IMG/VR virus record: IMGVR_UViG_3300048687_000087 | Coordinates: 13,413-77,412 of that record | DNA length: 64,000 nucleotides | DNA from: a virus | Direction: 5' to 3' (one strand) | Shown here: positions 3,820 to 13,420 of the stretch, piece after piece | How the letters are laid out: the number at the start of each line of letters is the position of its first letter | Position numbering within the stretch: the stretch's first letter is position 1 | Program-made: the position numbers and the translations under genes | The notes under the pieces: model-generated | Told to the model about the DNA's origin: nothing | What the model saw: only the letters and a program-made list of their open reading frames with translations | The model's database searches: none

Positions 3820-5955
3820 ATGACCACGACCGAGCCGATAACCGAGGTCGAAGAACGGCCTCTCAAGCTGGTCAAGCCGCCCGCCACCGAGACGCCCACG
3901 AAGACCCGTGCCGAGCGGCAGCGACTACGCCGCCTCAAGGCTGTGCTCGCCGACGAGCGCACCCGCGACGTGTACCGGCTCGCCGTCCGCCACGGCGCTT
4001 ACGTTGCGGGCGGCGCCCGGATCATCACCCGCCGCGGATGGGACGACCGCAGTACCGCCCGCTACCAGCGGATGATCCGCACCGCTGAAGCCGCAGGGAA
4101 CCGTGAACTCGCCGCCGACTGGGAAGAGCGCGCCCACCGGTTCCGGCAAGCACGCCACCAGCGCCGCATGGACCTCCTCACTTCCATGCGCAACGCGCCC
4201 AAAGCCGTCGGAGCCGGTGCCCTCACCGGCACGGGACTGCTCGCCGTCACCGGGATCGCCATCGCCGTCGCCAACAAGAACATCGCCGACATACTGCTGC
4301 CCTTCGAGTTCGTCATCGGCATCGTGAGCTGGGCATACGTCATCGCCAGCGTGGTGTGGGCGACCGTGAAGCTCGCAGGCCCCAGCCTGGCTGTGCTCGC
4401 CCTGTGGAACCTCGGACGCCAGCGGCAGGCGGCCCCGGCGTGGGCGCTGCCGGAGAAACTCCGCACTGACGGAGGCCCGATCACCCCGTCGATCGTGGTG
4501 AAAGCCTTCCGTGACCTGCGGATTAGCGACCTGAAGAAGGCCATCCTGGACATGGAGGATGGCGGCGCATCCATGCTGTCGCCGATCGTCATCGCAGGCT
4601 GCGGCGTCGAAGTCGACGTCACCTTGCCGTCCAGCGTCTCCACCGACGAGATCGAGGCAAAGCGGCGCAAGCTCGCCGAGAACCTCAACCGGCACGAGCA
4701 CGAGCTGTACATTTCTGTCGCTCCGCAGCCGCGGACGGTGAAGCTGTGGATCGCCGACTCCGGTGCTCTCGACGAGCCGATCGGGCCGTCGCCGCTGGTC
4801 ACAGACCCTGGCATGACCGCCGACTACAAGACCGGTCGTGCACCGTGGGGTGTCGACCTGCGCGGCGACGCCGTGTTGATGAGCCTGTTCCAGAAGATGG
4901 TGCTGGTCACGGGCCTGTCCAACCAGGGGAAGACGGCATCGTTGCGGGCCCTGGCTCTGTGGCTGGCTTTCGACCCGTCCGTCGAGTTCCGTATCGGTGA
5001 CCTCAAGGGCATCGGCGACTGGCGAATGTTCGTCGGCCTCGCCACCGTCGTGATCGAGGGGCCGACGGACGAGCACGTCATGGACGTCACGCACATGGTC
5101 GAGGACGGGTTCGAGGAGATGAACCGGAGGCTGCAGGCCCCCGAGGGCACTGTGTTCAAACCGCTGGTCATCATCGTTGACGAGGCGCAGGTCGCCTACG
5201 GGTCGGGTGCCCGGGAGACCTATGTGACGGACAACGGGACCGTGAAGTTCGGGGCACCTTACGGCGGGTCCAAGAGCACGAGCAGGTACTTCCGGGCCGT
5301 CAAGGGCATCCACGACCAGGGCCGCGCCGTCAACGTGCTGATCTGGGAAGGCACCCAGGACCCGACGAACGAAAACCTGCCCAAGCGGTCCCGCGAGGGC
5401 AACCACATCCGGGCAGCGCTGGTCCTCGGCACCAAGTCCCAGGCCGAGATGGCGCTCGGCGAGGCGCCCGTAGAGAAGGGCGCCGCACCGCACAAGCTGC
5501 GGCAGGGCTTCGACAAGGGACAACTCGTAGCCGCAGGTGAGGGCGTCCCGCTGGCCCCCGGCCAGGTGTCGCTGAACGTGCGCACGCACTACATCAGCAA
5601 CGACGACGCGAAGGAAGTCGCGGACCGGGCCAAGGCGCTGCGCAGGAAGGTCACCACGCTGCACAAGCTGGAGCCCGTCGAGGAACTGGACCCGCTGGCC
5701 GACATCGCAATCGTCATTGGCAGTACGGCGCGCATGCGGACGCAGGAAGTCCTTCAACTGCTGGCGGAACGCAACCCGGCTGGCTACCGAGAGTGGACGT
5801 TCCAGGACCTGAAGGAGGCCCTGGGAGTCGTCGACGCAGCCCCGCACAAGAGCGACGGGCAGATGGTCGTGGACCAACAGAAGGTCCAACGGGCCCTCGC
5901 CGAACGCGACTCCAAGGACCAGGGAGGCGAGAAGAAGACAGGGAGTTCTCCCTGA
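3820..5955 (+). CDS. traB: FtsK/SpoIIIE-family DNA translocase, TraB-like conjugal transfer ATPase
   Basis: N-terminal TM segments, Walker A GLSNQGKT, EMNRR, Walker B IIVDEAQ, QGRA, GTQDP, C-terminal wHTH-like domain; Spd-like neighbours. Confidence 0.8.
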   Translation: MTTTEPITEVEERPLKLVKPPATETPTKTRAERQRLRRLKAVLADERTRDVYRLAVRHGAYVAGGARIITRRGWDDRSTARYQRMIRTAEAAGNRELAADWEERAHRFRQARHQRRMDLLTSMRNAPKAVGAGALTGTGLLAVTGIAIAVANKNIADILLPFEFVIGIVSWAYVIASVVWATVKLAGPSLAVLALWNLGRQRQAAPAWALPEKLRTDGGPITPSIVVKAFRDLRISDLKKAILDMEDGGASMLSPIVIAGCGVEVDVTLPSSVSTDEIEAKRRKLAENLNRHEHELYISVAPQPRTVKLWIADSGALDEPIGPSPLVTDPGMTADYKTGRAPWGVDLRGDAVLMSLFQKMVLVTGLSNQGKTASLRALALWLAFDPSVEFRIGDLKGIGDWRMFVGLATVVIEGPTDEHVMDVTHMVEDGFEEMNRRLQAPEGTVFKPLVIIVDEAQVAYGSGARETYVTDNGTVKFGAPYGGSKSTSRYFRAVKGIHDQGRAVNVLIWEGTQDPTNENLPKRSREGNHIRAALVLGTKSQAEMALGEAPVEKGAAPHKLRQGFDKGQLVAAGEGVPLAPGQVSLNVRTHYISNDDAKEVADRAKALRRKVTTLHKLEPVEELDPLADIAIVIGSTARMRTQEVLQLLAERNPAGYREWTFQDLKEALGVVDAAPHKSDGQMVVDQQKVQRALAERDSKDQGGEKKTGSSP

Positions 5956-6039
5956 GGGCCTCCCTGAGGCGCCTGACCCCATCTGACCAGCACGAATCGC
6001 TCTTTCAGGGAGGCAGGGAGGCGCTCGCAGCCTCCCTGA
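5920..6039. repeat. Cluster of seven CTCCCTG/CAGGGAG heptamers (candidate clt-like transfer locus)
   Basis: CAGGGAG at 5920, 5939, 6006, 6014; CTCCCTG at 5948, 5960, 6032. Confidence 0.65.
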
Positions 6040-6118
6040 AAGCCCCCGGAATCAGGGGTTTTCGAAGGAACGAGCCGGCTCCTCGACAACCCAGGACCGC
6101 ACGGAAACGAGGAAGCCG

Positions 6119-6859
6119 ATGCCATGCGTAGCCCACGACGAAGACCGACCCTGCGGCCGAGAGACCACCATGACCAGGCCCGTAGCGCTGTGTCACATCC
6201 ATCGTGTTCAGGTCGCACTCGCTGTCATGCCCGAGCTGCTGAGCGAACACCTGGCAAGCGCCGCAACGCCACTCGCAATACCGAGCCTCTTACAGGGGCC
6301 CCATGACCCCATCGTCTACTTCCTCGGCCACCGCGACCGCATCAAGATCGGGTTCACGACCAATCTCAAGAAGCGCGTCAACGCCCTCGCGCTGCGCCCC
6401 GGCAGCATCCTGCTGGCCCTGGACGGCAGCGCCGATCTCGAGCAGGCCCTGCACGCCCGCTTCGCTCCTGCGCAGGTCGGTGACACCGAGTGGTTCGACA
6501 GCACCCCAGAGATCCGGCACTACATCGACAACCGCAGCACGTGGGCGCATGGACTGGCGCGGCGAGGGCCGCTGGACAACCAGAGAAGGCCAACGCTCGA
6601 ACGGGCCTCGACCAATGCAGAGCGTGCAGTCCTGCTTGCCGATCTGGCAGAAGTTCTAGGAAGCGAGCCTCGTATGCGCACGAGGGAAGCACTGCAGCGT
6701 CTCGTCGAGAACGCGCCGGCCACGTATCGCAGCTGGACGTTCCGGGACCTCACCCAGGTACTTCGGGCCGCCAACTCGCCGCCTCGCACCTACCAGGGCT
6801 TTCCGGTCGTCGACCGGCAGTCCGTCCACACGGCTCTAGCCGCACAGCAGTCTCAGTAG
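6119..6859 (+). CDS. GIY-YIG/T5orf172-like protein fused to a copy of the TraB C-terminal domain
   Basis: VYFL..RIKIGFTTNLKKR..LEQALHARF..TEWF motif; C-terminus aligns with the TraB C-terminus; TTA codon at 6290. Confidence 0.75.
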   Translation: MPCVAHDEDRPCGRETTMTRPVALCHIHRVQVALAVMPELLSEHLASAATPLAIPSLLQGPHDPIVYFLGHRDRIKIGFTTNLKKRVNALALRPGSILLALDGSADLEQALHARFAPAQVGDTEWFDSTPEIRHYIDNRSTWAHGLARRGPLDNQRRPTLERASTNAERAVLLADLAEVLGSEPRMRTREALQRLVENAPATYRSWTFRDLTQVLRAANSPPRTYQGFPVVDRQSVHTALAAQQSQ

Positions 6860-6889
6860 CTACTTCACCCACCCAACCGAAGGAGTTCC

Positions 6890-7057
6890 GTGGCCAAGCC
6901 CAAGCCGTTGTACACGACCGGAGAGATCGCGCAGAACACGTTCATCGTCGGCACCGCCATGTTGCGCGGCGGGCGCCTCACCGACCGACAGAAGCGCCGT
7001 CTGGAACGAATCCGCGACAACGCCATGGACCGCGGCGGCGTCACCGACAAGCACTGA
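6890..7057 (+). CDS. Small hypothetical protein (55 aa, not in ORF track)
   Basis: GAAGGAG RBS, GTG start, open to TGA 7057. Confidence 0.6.
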   Translation: MAKPKPLYTTGEIAQNTFIVGTAMLRGGRLTDRQKRRLERIRDNAMDRGGVTDKH

Positions 7058-11872: not shown

Positions 11873-13420
11873 ATGGTGACCGCGGTCCGCCCGCGCGGCT
11901 ATCTCGACGGCCTGGATGCCGAGTCGTTCGACCTTGACGTCTACCTCGCCCGGTTCGATGCCCGCCTTCTCGCCGACGAGGAGGGCCGGCGCACGCTCAC
12001 GCGCCTGGACCCGCTGCTGTTTGCGCTCGTCTACGCCCGGCATCATCTCCGAGATCCCGGGGGTCGGTTGACGTTCGGTGACGCGCACCTGGACTGGTGC
12101 CGTGCGGCCCGCGCCTGGGTGCGGCCAGCGATCACGCCAGCCGAGCAGCGTGACGCCTACGTCGCTCCTCGCAACATGGGCAAGAGCACTTGGTGGTTCC
12201 TGCTACTGCCGCTGTGGGCTGCCGCCCACGGGCATGCCCGGTTCGCTGCGGCGTTCGCATCGTCCGCGACTCAGGCGGAGACGCATCTGGGCACGTTCAA
12301 GCGGGAGATCGACTCGAATGAACTGCTGCGCCGCGACTTTCTCGACCTGTGCAGTCCCGCGAAGCGGCCGTCGGGTGGGAACGTCGCGGACACGCAGAAC
12401 ATGTACATCGCGAAGAACGGGTTCGTGTTCGCGGCCCGCGGTATCGACTCGTCGAACCTCGGCATGAAGGTTGGTGAAGCCCGACCCGACCTCATCCTGT
12501 GCGATGACATTGAGCCCGATGAGTCGAGCTACAGCCTTGACCTGGCCCGCAAGCGGCGCACCACGCTCATCGACTCGATCCTGCCGCTCAATGTGTACGC
12601 GAGGGTGGTCATCTCCGGCACGGTCACCATGCCGGGCAGCATCATCCACCAACTGGTCAAGCACGGTCGGGGCGTCGAGACCGCGGACTGGATTGGCGAG
12701 GAGGGTTTCCGTGCGCATTGCACCGCGCCGATCGTGCAGCGTGCCGACGGAACGGAGCGCAGCGTGTGGCCGGCGAAGTGGCCGCTCGCCTACCTCAAGT
12801 CGATTGAGCACACCCGCTCGTTCGCGAAGAACTACGCCAACGACCCGATGGGTGCGGACGGTGAGCTGTGGGCGCCGGAAGACTTCCGCTATCCCGGCGA
12901 CGAGGGTGTGGATCCGGTGACGCACATGATGCTGTCGATCGACCCGGCGGTCACCGCGAAGAAGGGCTCGGACTATACGGGGATGGCGGTCGTGTCGTGG
13001 TCGGCGCGGCATCGCCGGTGCACGGTGCATGCGGCGATCGGCTTGAAGATTCAGCCGGGCCCGCTGCTGCGGGAGCGAGTGCTGGCTCTGCTGGATGAGT
13101 ATCCGCAGATCGGTCTGATTCTGATCGAGGTCAACCAGGGTGGCGATACGTGGGAGGCGATCCTTCATGGCATGCCGGTGAAGGTGAAGACGGTTTCGCA
13201 GGCGGAGAACAAGTTCACGCGCGCCGAGGGGGTGTTGAACCACTATCAGCGCGGCCGAGTCATTCACGCCCGCCGCCTGGTGGAGGCTGAGCAGCAGATG
13301 TGCGCGTTTCCGAAGGCCCCGCACGACGACCTGGTCGACGCTGTGGGTTCGGCGATCCGCCGGTTCATCCCCAACAAGCCGCGCGAGATCTTCAAGGCGA
13401 GTAGCGCCAGTTACCTTTGA
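11873..13420 (+). CDS. terL: Terminase large subunit
   Basis: APRNMGKST Walker A, LILCDDIE Walker B, SIDPA and HDDLVDA nuclease motifs. Confidence 0.95.
   Translation: MVTAVRPRGYLDGLDAESFDLDVYLARFDARLLADEEGRRTLTRLDPLLFALVYARHHLRDPGGRLTFGDAHLDWCRAARAWVRPAITPAEQRDAYVAPRNMGKSTWWFLLLPLWAAAHGHARFAAAFASSATQAETHLGTFKREIDSNELLRRDFLDLCSPAKRPSGGNVADTQNMYIAKNGFVFAARGIDSSNLGMKVGEARPDLILCDDIEPDESSYSLDLARKRRTTLIDSILPLNVYARVVISGTVTMPGSIIHQLVKHGRGVETADWIGEEGFRAHCTAPIVQRADGTERSVWPAKWPLAYLKSIEHTRSFAKNYANDPMGADGELWAPEDFRYPGDEGVDPVTHMMLSIDPAVTAKKGSDYTGMAVVSWSARHRRCTVHAAIGLKIQPGPLLRERVLALLDEYPQIGLILIEVNQGGDTWEAILHGMPVKVKTVSQAENKFTRAEGVLNHYQRGRVIHARRLVEAEQQMCAFPKAPHDDLVDAVGSAIRRFIPNKPREIFKASSASYL

What the first reader, a model, noticed from the sequence alone, without database searches (positions are those of the whole stretch)
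5695..6850. TraB C-terminal domain is duplicated onto an adjacent GIY-YIG/T5orf172-like protein
Seen: TraB residues LADIAIVIGSTARMRTQEVLQLLAERNPAGYREWTFQDL..VVDQQKVQRALA align without gaps to the C-terminus of ORF 6119-6859 (LADLAEVLGSEPRMRTREALQRLVENAPATYRSWTFRDL..VVDRQSVHTALA), 36/69 identical by my count. The N-terminal part has T5orf172-type motifs. Established: the TraB wHTH determines clt recognition, and the TraB system has no known relaxase. Inference: a nuclease-like domain addressed to the same DNA sites as the translocase could nick or linearise the circle for transfer, act as a competitor or regulator of TraB, or attack rival elements. This translocase plus targeted-nuclease pair looks undescribed.
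Basis: partly seen in the sequence, partly recalled or inferred. Interest (0 to 1): 0.8.

Follow-up and report, generated by a model that had tools for sequence, protein, structure and literature searches.

The report
Nuclease carrying TraB's DNA-address domain
In a Streptomyces phage-plasmid, a small homing-type nuclease gene just after the DNA-transfer motor gene traB carries an old copy of TraB's DNA-recognition domain, so it is probably aimed at TraB's transfer-site repeats, and its relatives have copied the equivalent domain from their upstream neighbour several times.

Summary
The last ~110 residues of TraB (3820-5955) and of ORF 6119-6859 align at 42% identity (BLASTP E 8e-19). The ORF's core is a T5orf172/MUG113 domain of the GIY-YIG superfamily. 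Its Tyr, Arg and Glu are invariant in 134 relatives.

The fusion is not unique. In this nuclease family the C-terminal domain is variable. In 8 of 22 sampled loci it matches the C-terminus of the gene immediately upstream, which is TraB or a Spd-like membrane protein. There are at least five sequence types, which implies independent captures.

Between traB and the nuclease gene lies a cluster of GCCTCCCTG repeats. This sits in a conserved clt-like layout. In 16 related traB loci the repeat word changes together with the TraB winged helix.

The nuclease is absent downstream of traB in all 16 of those loci, so it is not a general part of TraB transfer.

My best reading is a clt-directed, homing-type or anti-rival nuclease, analogous to Odn of phage ICP1. 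Binding and cleavage are untested. I class it as a new variant of a known kind.

This scan noted similar neighbour-domain nucleases on other DNA (e1-3423177, e1-5779767).

The parts
3820..5955 (+). traB: FtsK-like conjugative DNA translocase, 711 aa, with Walker A GLSNQGKT and Walker B LVIIVDEAQ
   Evidence: Translation. PHROG FtsK/SpoIIIE-like, E 1e-13. 55.5% identical over 94% of its length to the FtsK/SpoIIIE protein of a 13.5-kb AICE-like Streptomyces plasmid that also carries spdB, prim-pol and an integrase.
5587..5916 (+). TraB C-terminal region homologous to the nuclease tail (residues 590-699). The winged-helix part is 5695-5916.
   Evidence: The same domain ends 700-950-aa frames in about 100 of 401 Streptomyces genomes.
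5920..6042 (.). clt-like repeat cluster: 7 CTCCCTG heptamers, 5 of them GCCTCCCTG, in both orientations, plus the palindrome GGGAGTTCTCCC. It overlaps the last 12 traB codons.
   Evidence: 7 of the window's 15 heptamers lie within 119 bp. All 5 nonamers of the 77-kb record lie here. The layout is conserved in L070 and in 16 traB loci, and the repeat word varies with the TraB class.
6119..6859 (+). T5orf172/GIY-YIG-type nuclease gene, 246 aa. A GAGGAAG ribosome-binding site lies upstream of the ATG.
   Evidence: Homologues of 246-247 aa cover the whole length, which supports this start over the 210-aa database call (P0003).
6125..6202 (+). N-terminal Cys/His motif (C3, C12, C25, H28), probably a zinc finger
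   Evidence: Conserved in A1 and A3. The AF2 model is of low confidence here, pLDDT about 55.
6311..6511 (+). T5orf172/MUG113 catalytic core (residues 65-131)
   Evidence: Pfam. Y67, K76-I77-G78, R86, E108 and E124 are invariant in 134 relatives. The core-only AF2 model has pLDDT 91.7. Its 8 best structural matches are all GIY-YIG nucleases, Z 5.2-3.0.
6545..6613 (+). Flexible linker (residues 143-165)
   Evidence: pLDDT is below 50 over residues 143-162.
6614..6856 (+). Winged-helix domain copied from a TraB (residues 166-246)
   Evidence: AF2 pLDDT about 90, topology H-b-H-H-b-b-H. Matches to winged-helix domains at Z 6-7. A TraB C-terminal HMM scores E 5e-27.

Best explanation
ORF 6119-6859 encodes a three-part protein: a Cys/His finger, a T5orf172 (GIY-YIG type) nuclease core, and a winged helix joined by a flexible linker. 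The winged helix is an old, diverged copy of TraB's clt-recognition domain. I infer that it arose by a tandem duplication spanning the 3' end of traB and the 5' part of the nuclease gene. Such an event fuses the nuclease core to the neighbour's tail in one step and leaves both genes intact. I infer that the winged helix takes the nuclease to TraB-type 8-9-bp repeats (AGGGAGGC class) like those at 5920-6042, and that the tethered core cuts nearby. I infer that the biologically relevant targets are other DNA molecules carrying such a clt. These would be nuclease-free copies of related elements (homing) or competing AICEs and plasmids in the same mycelium, as with Odn. The element's own transfer is not the likely target. 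Shown here: the homology, conserved catalytic-type residues, the fold, the recurrence of neighbour-domain capture, the repeat cluster and its covariation with TraB. Not shown: DNA binding, cleavage, the target and self-protection.
For: Homology: E 8e-19. Core: Pfam above cut-off, invariant Y67, R86 and E124 in 134 relatives, and a GIY-YIG fold. Tail: a confident winged helix that a TraB C-terminal HMM hits at E 5e-27. Direction of transfer: the domain is common in TraBs without the nuclease, so TraB was the donor. Recurrence: in WIN, L005, L001, L002, L006, L007, L027 and L031 the nuclease tail matches the tail of the gene just upstream (z 10-37). The types do not cross-match each other. The tail of P0024 is closest to another TraB class, and other members carry FtsK_gamma. 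Each tail type is one clade of the nuclease-core tree. Target: the GCCTCCCTG cluster lies between the genes and is conserved in L070 while flanking DNA diverged. In 16 traB loci the repeat word (AGGGAGGC, AGTGAGGC or GGTGGGGC) changes with the TraB winged-helix class. The group-1 nuclease tail has the G-class residues at the four discriminating helix columns. Accessory status: no nuclease gene downstream of traB in the 15 closest IMG/VR traB loci or in plasmid L137. Its position differs relative to a shared small gene in L018 and L020. Precedent: Odn is a T5orf172 nuclease with a domain 42% identical to RepA_N, and it cuts the satellite origin through its iterons (PMC8263062). T5orf172 homing genes swap DNA-binding domains (bioRxiv 10.1101/2023.03.23.533998).
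Against: No binding or cleavage data exist. The nuclease's winged helices form their own long-branched clade, not sister to the window's TraB. In the wing they carry T-class or other residues, so their specificity may differ from the resident TraB's. If the specificity is the same, the element must protect its own clt, and I found no mechanism for that. Partners that are Spd-like proteins have no evident repeat cluster at the junction. 14 of 22 loci show no shared domain. A clean presence/absence polymorphism in otherwise near-identical elements, the hallmark of homing, was not found.
Confidence: 0.5

Rival explanations
1. Transfer accessory. The nuclease binds the element's own clt and nicks or cuts it, so that TraB can load onto or thread the circular DNA.
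For: It lies immediately next to traB and the clt-like repeats. It shares TraB's recognition fold. No processing enzyme is known for TraB systems (PMC4447253).
Against: It is absent downstream of traB in the 15 closest IMG/VR loci and in the AICE-like plasmid L137, and the core is rare in Streptomyces genomes that carry TraB. In L021 the nuclease tail does not match the resident TraB or its repeats. In other loci the donor of the tail is a Spd-like protein, not TraB. The literature cited describes transfer of unprocessed plasmid DNA.
Confidence: 0.12
2. Domesticated DNA binder. The protein no longer cuts. It occupies the clt or the traB-proximal region as a regulator or as a competitor of TraB, as CapR does in cholera phage satellites.
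For: T5orf172 homing proteins have been domesticated as repressors (bioRxiv 10.1101/2020.11.28.402263 listed; CapR is discussed). The repeats overlap the end of traB and lie upstream of the nuclease gene's own start.
Against: Y67, R86, E108 and E124 are invariant in 134 diverse relatives. That pattern is expected for an active site, not for a pure binder.
Confidence: 0.15
3. Docking module. The copied tail mediates protein-protein contact with the TraB/Spd translocation complex rather than DNA recognition. This would place the nuclease at the transfer pore or send it along with the DNA.
For: The TraB C-terminal part interacts with the TraB N-terminus in pSVH1 (PMC4447253). Donors include membrane Spd-like proteins.
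Against: The fold is a typical DNA-binding winged helix. Other family members carry HTH_17 or FtsK_gamma, which are DNA-reading domains. In L021 no partner with a matching domain exists in the 94.6-kb record.
Confidence: 0.08
4. Neutral by-product of local duplication, or a packaging helper nuclease for the nearby terminase. Under either version the shared domain has no addressing role.
For: Capture is always from the upstream gene, as a purely mechanical duplication would give. The gene family sits between the transfer module and the terminase in phage-plasmids.
Against: The tail is conserved at 51-85% identity across eleven group-1 proteins and folds confidently. In the window the terminase gene is 5 kb away.
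Confidence: 0.1

Closest known systems
Odn (Gp88) of Vibrio phage ICP1, the origin-directed nuclease (Barth, Nguyen and Seed 2021, PMC8263062)
   Same: A T5orf172 nuclease core joined to a DNA-binding domain about 42% identical to that of another protein which reads short repeats. For Odn that protein is RepA_N, which reads iterons. Here it is the TraB winged helix, which reads clt repeats. The identity level is the same as found here.
   Different: Odn's borrowed domain is N-terminal and comes from an enemy satellite. Here it is C-terminal and paralogous to the element's own upstream neighbour. The presumed target is a transfer locus, not a replication origin. Activity is proven for Odn and untested here.
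Free-standing T5orf172 homing endonuclease genes of phages (Barth, Dunham and Seed 2023, bioRxiv 10.1101/2023.03.23.533998)
   Same: Small intergenic nuclease genes near essential genes, with modular and exchangeable DNA-binding regions that often include zinc fingers. The position varies within a syntenic backbone.
   Different: Those proteins mostly use CapR, DUF723 or DUF4397 zinc-finger arrays. This family has one CCCH-like N-terminal motif plus a C-terminal winged helix or HTH taken from the neighbouring gene. Homing has not been shown.
TraB/clt system of Streptomyces plasmids and AICEs (pSVH1, pIJ101; Thoma et al. 2015, PMC4447253, and the work cited there)
   Same: An FtsK-like translocase whose C-terminus recognises 8-bp repeats in a clt next to traB. 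The window's traB and repeat cluster fit this description.
   Different: No nuclease with the TraB recognition domain is part of the described system. No paper in the searched library combines TraB, clt and GIY-YIG, or T5orf172 and Streptomyces.
I-TevI-type GIY-YIG homing endonucleases
   Same: A catalytic GIY-YIG domain tethered by a flexible linker to a separate C-terminal DNA-binding domain. The I-TevI catalytic domain is among the structural matches. The I-TevI architecture is from my own knowledge.
   Different: There is no sequence relationship outside the core. 'YIG' reads K-I-G, as is usual for T5orf172. The DNA-binding part has a different origin.

Membership tests
T5orf172/MUG113 (GIY-YIG superfamily) | Match to the family profile above the curated cut-off | tested here: met
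   MUG113 30.5 bits (cut-off 22.3) and T5orf172 26.5 bits (cut-off 20). All 134 relatives match MUG113.
T5orf172/MUG113 (GIY-YIG superfamily) | Conserved Tyr of strand 1, Arg of helix 1 and the catalytic Glu | tested here: met
   Y67, R86 and E124 are invariant in 134 sequences, together with K76-I77-G78 and E108.
T5orf172/MUG113 (GIY-YIG superfamily) | GIY-YIG fold (b-b-a-b-a-b-a) | tested here: met
   The core-only AF2 model has pLDDT 91.7. Only 44 of 48,161 chains reach Z >= 2, and the top 8 are all GIY-YIG proteins: EF2693 Z 5.2, Slx1 4.1, HIGLE 4.1, then EndoII, PD-T4-3, UvrC and I-TevI at about 3. The Z values are modest.
T5orf172/MUG113 (GIY-YIG superfamily) | Endonuclease activity | not testable with these tools
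   Needs purified protein and an E124A control.
Odn-like chimeric, address-borrowing nuclease | DNA-binding domain homologous to that of another site-specific DNA-binding protein | tested here: met
   42% identity over 113 aa to TraB, E 8e-19. A TraB C-terminal HMM scores E 5e-27.
Odn-like chimeric, address-borrowing nuclease | Repeat-dependent cleavage of the donor protein's binding site | not testable with these tools
   A candidate site exists at 5920-6042. Binding and cutting are untested.
Odn-like chimeric, address-borrowing nuclease | The borrowed domain comes from a rival element | tested here: inconclusive
   The donor type is the element's own upstream gene. However, the nuclease tails form a separate clade not tied to the resident TraB, and in L021 the tail mismatches the resident TraB.
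Free-standing homing endonuclease gene | Presence/absence polymorphism at one site in otherwise similar genomes | tested here: inconclusive
   All 16 related traB loci lack it downstream of traB, but their downstream genes are unrelated to the window's. The gene's position differs relative to a shared small gene in L018 and L020.
TraB (FtsK-like conjugative translocase), for ORF 3820-5955 | FtsK/SpoIIIE-type ATPase with Walker motifs, in a transfer-gene context | tested here: met
   PHROG FtsK/SpoIIIE-like, E 1e-13. Walker A and B are visible in the translation. 55.5% identity to the FtsK/SpoIIIE protein of an AICE-like plasmid with spdB, prim-pol and an integrase.
TraB (FtsK-like conjugative translocase), for ORF 3820-5955 | C-terminal recognition domain plus a cluster of about 8-bp repeats (clt) beside the gene | tested here: met
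   The domain is shared with TraB-length frames in about 100 Streptomyces genomes. Function as a clt is inferred.

The most novel reading that the evidence does not exclude
A family of small nucleases in actinomycete conjugative phage-plasmids re-arms itself again and again by copying the DNA-address domain of whichever DNA-binding gene lies just upstream (TraB, Spd-like proteins, FtsK-gamma-type domains). In this element that makes the transfer locus clt a target in conflicts between conjugative elements. TraB, clt and the nuclease tail would then diversify together, as satellite origins do under Odn.
Probability: 0.35. Interest if true: 0.8.

Novelty: new variant of a known kind. Interest (0 to 1): 0.62.

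Why it matters
If the nuclease does read TraB's repeats, it would be the first enzyme known to act on the clt of the relaxase-free Streptomyces transfer system. It would also be a second, independent example, after Odn, of a mobile element aiming a T5orf172 nuclease by copying another protein's DNA address. The repeated capture of the upstream neighbour's domain suggests a general and simple route for such nucleases to gain new targets: one tandem duplication. As a by-product, the covariation of TraB winged-helix classes with repeat words (AGGGAGGC, AGTGAGGC, GGTGGGGC) gives a testable recognition code for TraB and clt.

Tried and rejected
As a result I could not read the neighbourhoods of P0004-P0011, P0024, P0039 and P0061, which would be the best test of tail/TraB matching.

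- The whole-model Foldseek search gave no match at E <= 0.001.
- PADLOC had no match for either protein. NCBIfam gave nothing useful. The PDB sequence search with TraB gave nothing.
- A second word-index search with the tail alone returned only the protein itself and P0004.
- A six-frame search for a partner domain in the 14 loci without a shared tail found nothing above shuffled controls. L021 and L028 were borderline.
- tblastn with the window's TraB against the first 15 genomic loci found none, so those elements carry other transfer proteins.
- The promoter and terminator scan of 5700-7000 gave nothing useful.
- Looking for the window's downstream genes behind nuclease-free traB loci, to define an insertion junction, failed because those elements are unrelated downstream.
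- I rejected ongoing gene conversion between the two copies. Orthologues are closer than paralogues within each type, and third-codon-position identity is 39%.
Full report
**What is there**

The window is part of a 77,412-bp IMG/VR virus record with direct terminal repeats. It carries a large terminase gene at 11873-13420 (PHROG 38, E 3e-70) and a Streptomyces-type transfer module.

ORF 3820-5955 is a TraB:
- It has Walker A and B motifs.
- It matches the FtsK/SpoIIIE-like PHROG.
- It is 55.5% identical over 94% of its length to the FtsK/SpoIIIE protein of a 13.5-kb circular AICE-like Streptomyces plasmid that also carries spdB, prim-pol and an integrase.

ORF 6119-6859 follows after 163 bp.

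**The observation**

- BLASTP of the two proteins gives 47/113 identical, E 8e-19.
- The winged-helix part alone is 50% identical over 74 residues.
- The score lies 31 sd above shuffles.
- Pfam assigns residues 66-130 of the ORF to MUG113 and T5orf172, both above their cut-offs.
- In DNA the two copies are 58% identical, and 39% at third codon positions. The duplication is therefore old.

**Anatomy of the nuclease**

Homologues of 246-247 aa cover the whole ORF. They conserve an N-terminal Cys/His motif (C3, C12, C25, H28). This supports the start at 6119 over the 210-aa database call.

Across 134 relatives at up to 50% clustering, the invariant residues are Y67, K76, I77, G78, R86, G103, E108, E124, W125 and F126. 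That set includes the Tyr, Arg and Glu of GIY-YIG enzymes.

AlphaFold models show three features:
- A confident core. The core-only model has pLDDT 91.7.
- A disordered linker at residues 143-162.
- A confident H-b-H-H-b-b-H winged helix at residues 166-246.

For the core, only 44 of 48,161 PDB representatives reach Z >= 2. The top eight are all GIY-YIG proteins: EF2693, Slx1, HIGLE, T4 EndoII, PD-T4-3, UvrC and I-TevI (Slx1 appears twice), with Z from 5.2 down to 3.0. The tail matches winged-helix domains at Z 6-7.

**Where the tail came from**

In 401 Streptomyces genomes, 108 had a match to the protein. Nearly all of these were to residues ~133-243, inside frames of 700-950 aa, which is the C-terminus of TraBs. 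Only 9 genomes matched the nuclease core. These counts are lower bounds, because only six candidates were scored per genome.

A TraB C-terminal HMM hits the nuclease at E 5e-27. TraB is therefore the donor.

In a tree of the domain, the eleven group-1 nuclease tails form one clade (100/100) on a long branch. The window's TraB groups with another TraB, not with the nuclease tails. This indicates one old capture for this group.

**The fusion recurs**

The nuclease family has a conserved finger and core and a variable tail.

I compared each tail with every ORF tail in its own locus, for 22 representative loci. In 8 loci the only strong match is the gene immediately upstream:

| Locus | z score | Upstream partner |
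|---|---|---|
| WIN | 31 | TraB |
| L005 (Nocardiopsis) | 37 | TraB |
| L001 | 25 | membrane protein |
| L002 | 15 | membrane protein |
| L006 | 15.5 | Spd-like membrane protein with a winged helix |
| L007 | 16 | Spd-like membrane protein with a winged helix |
| L027 | 11 | Spd-like membrane protein with a winged helix |
| L031 | 10 | Spd-like membrane protein with a winged helix |

The four tail types do not match one another; each matches only its own partner type. A fifth tail, P0024, is closest to a different TraB class: 46/86 identical to L152 and 43/67 to L145. Other members carry FtsK_gamma (P0039, P0061, P0106, L153) or HTH_17.

On the tree of nuclease cores each tail type is a single clade. 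One well-supported clade holds many different tails.

Within a type, orthologues are closer than paralogues. Captures are therefore discrete events followed by vertical descent.

The donor is always the upstream gene, even where traB lies directly downstream, as in L001. A tandem duplication spanning the neighbour's 3' part and the nuclease's 5' part would produce exactly this chimera while keeping both genes. The alignment with TraB begins at a shared 'HYI'. The duplication mechanism is my inference.

**The likely target**

Seven of the window's 15 CTCCCTG heptamers lie in 5920-6038. All five GCCTCCCTG nonamers of the 77-kb record are there.

The same repeats are conserved in the metagenome contig L070, which also has the traB-nuclease arrangement, while the DNA between the repeats has diverged.

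Fifteen IMG/VR loci (TraB 56-68% identical) and plasmid L137 share one layout directly after the traB stop codon:
- two repeats;
- the palindrome GGGAGTTCTCCC or a variant of it;
- two inverted repeats;
- a conserved spacer of about 40 nt;
- two more repeats.

The repeat word falls into three classes:

| Repeat word | Loci |
|---|---|
| AGGGAGGC (GGGGAGGC in L137) | six loci |
| AGTGAGGC / GGCAGTGA | eight loci |
| GGTGGGGC | one locus |

The TraB winged helix splits the same way. One class reads TQEVLQ..WTF.DLK..APYKSDG.MVV and the other TTEVLHRLK..WTGGRLK..EPGT.DGYPVV. This covariation is what TraB recognition repeats should show. Published work reports that clt regions hold 8-bp repeats read by the TraB C-terminus (PMC4447253).

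The group-1 nuclease tails carry the G-class residues at all four discriminating helix columns. They are mixed or T-like in the wing.

**Why it is not a core transfer enzyme**

- None of those 16 traB loci has the nuclease downstream of traB. L141 has a T5orf172 core upstream of traB.
- In L021 a group-1 nuclease, 85% identical in its tail to that of L070, sits behind a TraB only 21% identical to the window's.
- L021 has CCGGTAG-type repeats, and its 94.6-kb record has no GCCTCCCTG cluster and no second copy of the domain.
- In the circular Streptomyces phage-plasmids NZ_CP109172, NZ_CP109332 and NZ_CP108469 the nuclease sits after a small gene. That gene's homologue lies downstream of the nuclease in the window, and the tails there are unrelated to TraB.

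The gene therefore moves and swaps tails independently of traB.

**Comparison with known systems**

Odn of phage ICP1 is a T5orf172 nuclease whose DNA-binding domain is 42% identical to a satellite's RepA_N. It cuts the satellite origin in an iteron-dependent way, and an E180A mutant was made as the catalytically inactive control (PMC8263062).

T5orf172 homing genes cluster near essential genes and exchange DNA-binding domains (bioRxiv 10.1101/2023.03.23.533998).

The present case has the same logic, with three differences. The donor is TraB, or whatever lies upstream. The presumed address is clt. The domain is paralogous to the element's own gene.

No paper in the searched library links T5orf172 with Streptomyces, or GIY-YIG with TraB and clt.

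Other agents of this scan noted T5orf172 nucleases with a copy of an integrase arm-binding domain and of a helicase winged helix. I did not check those notes.

**Verdict**

The best reading, at about 0.5, is a clt-directed homing-type or anti-rival nuclease. The rivals are an own-clt processing enzyme, a non-cutting regulator, a docking module, and a neutral or packaging role.

I class it as a new variant of a known kind. What is strong here is the recurrent capture of the upstream neighbour's domain and the predicted TraB/clt recognition classes. What is missing is any biochemical evidence.

Noticed in passing
L138-L152, L137 and window 5920-6042: A conserved clt-like layout lies directly after the traB stop codon. 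Its repeat word (AGGGAGGC, AGTGAGGC or GGTGGGGC) covaries with residues of the TraB winged helix. This amounts to a candidate recognition code for this TraB subfamily.
   Followed up: partly
window 5920-5955: The last 12 codons of traB (DQGGEKKTGSSP) are encoded by the first clt-like repeats and the palindrome. In most relatives the stop codon lies before the repeats.
   Followed up: no
L141:2959-4350: One open frame joins a Spd/DUF2637-like membrane region to a T5orf172 core, about 0.7 kb upstream of a class-G traB. It may be a true fusion or two genes with no stop codon between them.
   Followed up: no
proteins P0039, P0061, P0106; L153:5887-6477: Family members carry an FtsK_gamma domain after the nuclease core. 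P0039 has FtsK_gamma followed by a second winged helix of the Spd-like type. No donor gene was found in L153.
   Followed up: partly
L018, L019, L020 (NZ_CP109172, NZ_CP109332, NZ_CP108469): Circular 88-102-kb Streptomyces 'plasmids' typed as non-mobilizable carry a TraB-like gene, this nuclease family, terminase and major capsid genes in one synteny. They look like conjugative phage-plasmids related to the window's element.
   Followed up: partly
window 6119-6226: The public gene call for this ORF (P0003, 210 aa) starts at Met37. That cuts off a Cys/His motif which is conserved in 246-247-aa homologues.
   Followed up: yes
L004, L023, L025, upstream genes: DUF2637 or Spd-like membrane proteins ending in an HTH_17/MerR-type domain lie directly upstream of nucleases whose tails also look like short HTH domains. 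No significant sequence match between them was found.
   Followed up: partly
L021's traB-proximal repeats (CCCCGGTAG) share the CCGGTA core with it.
   Followed up: no
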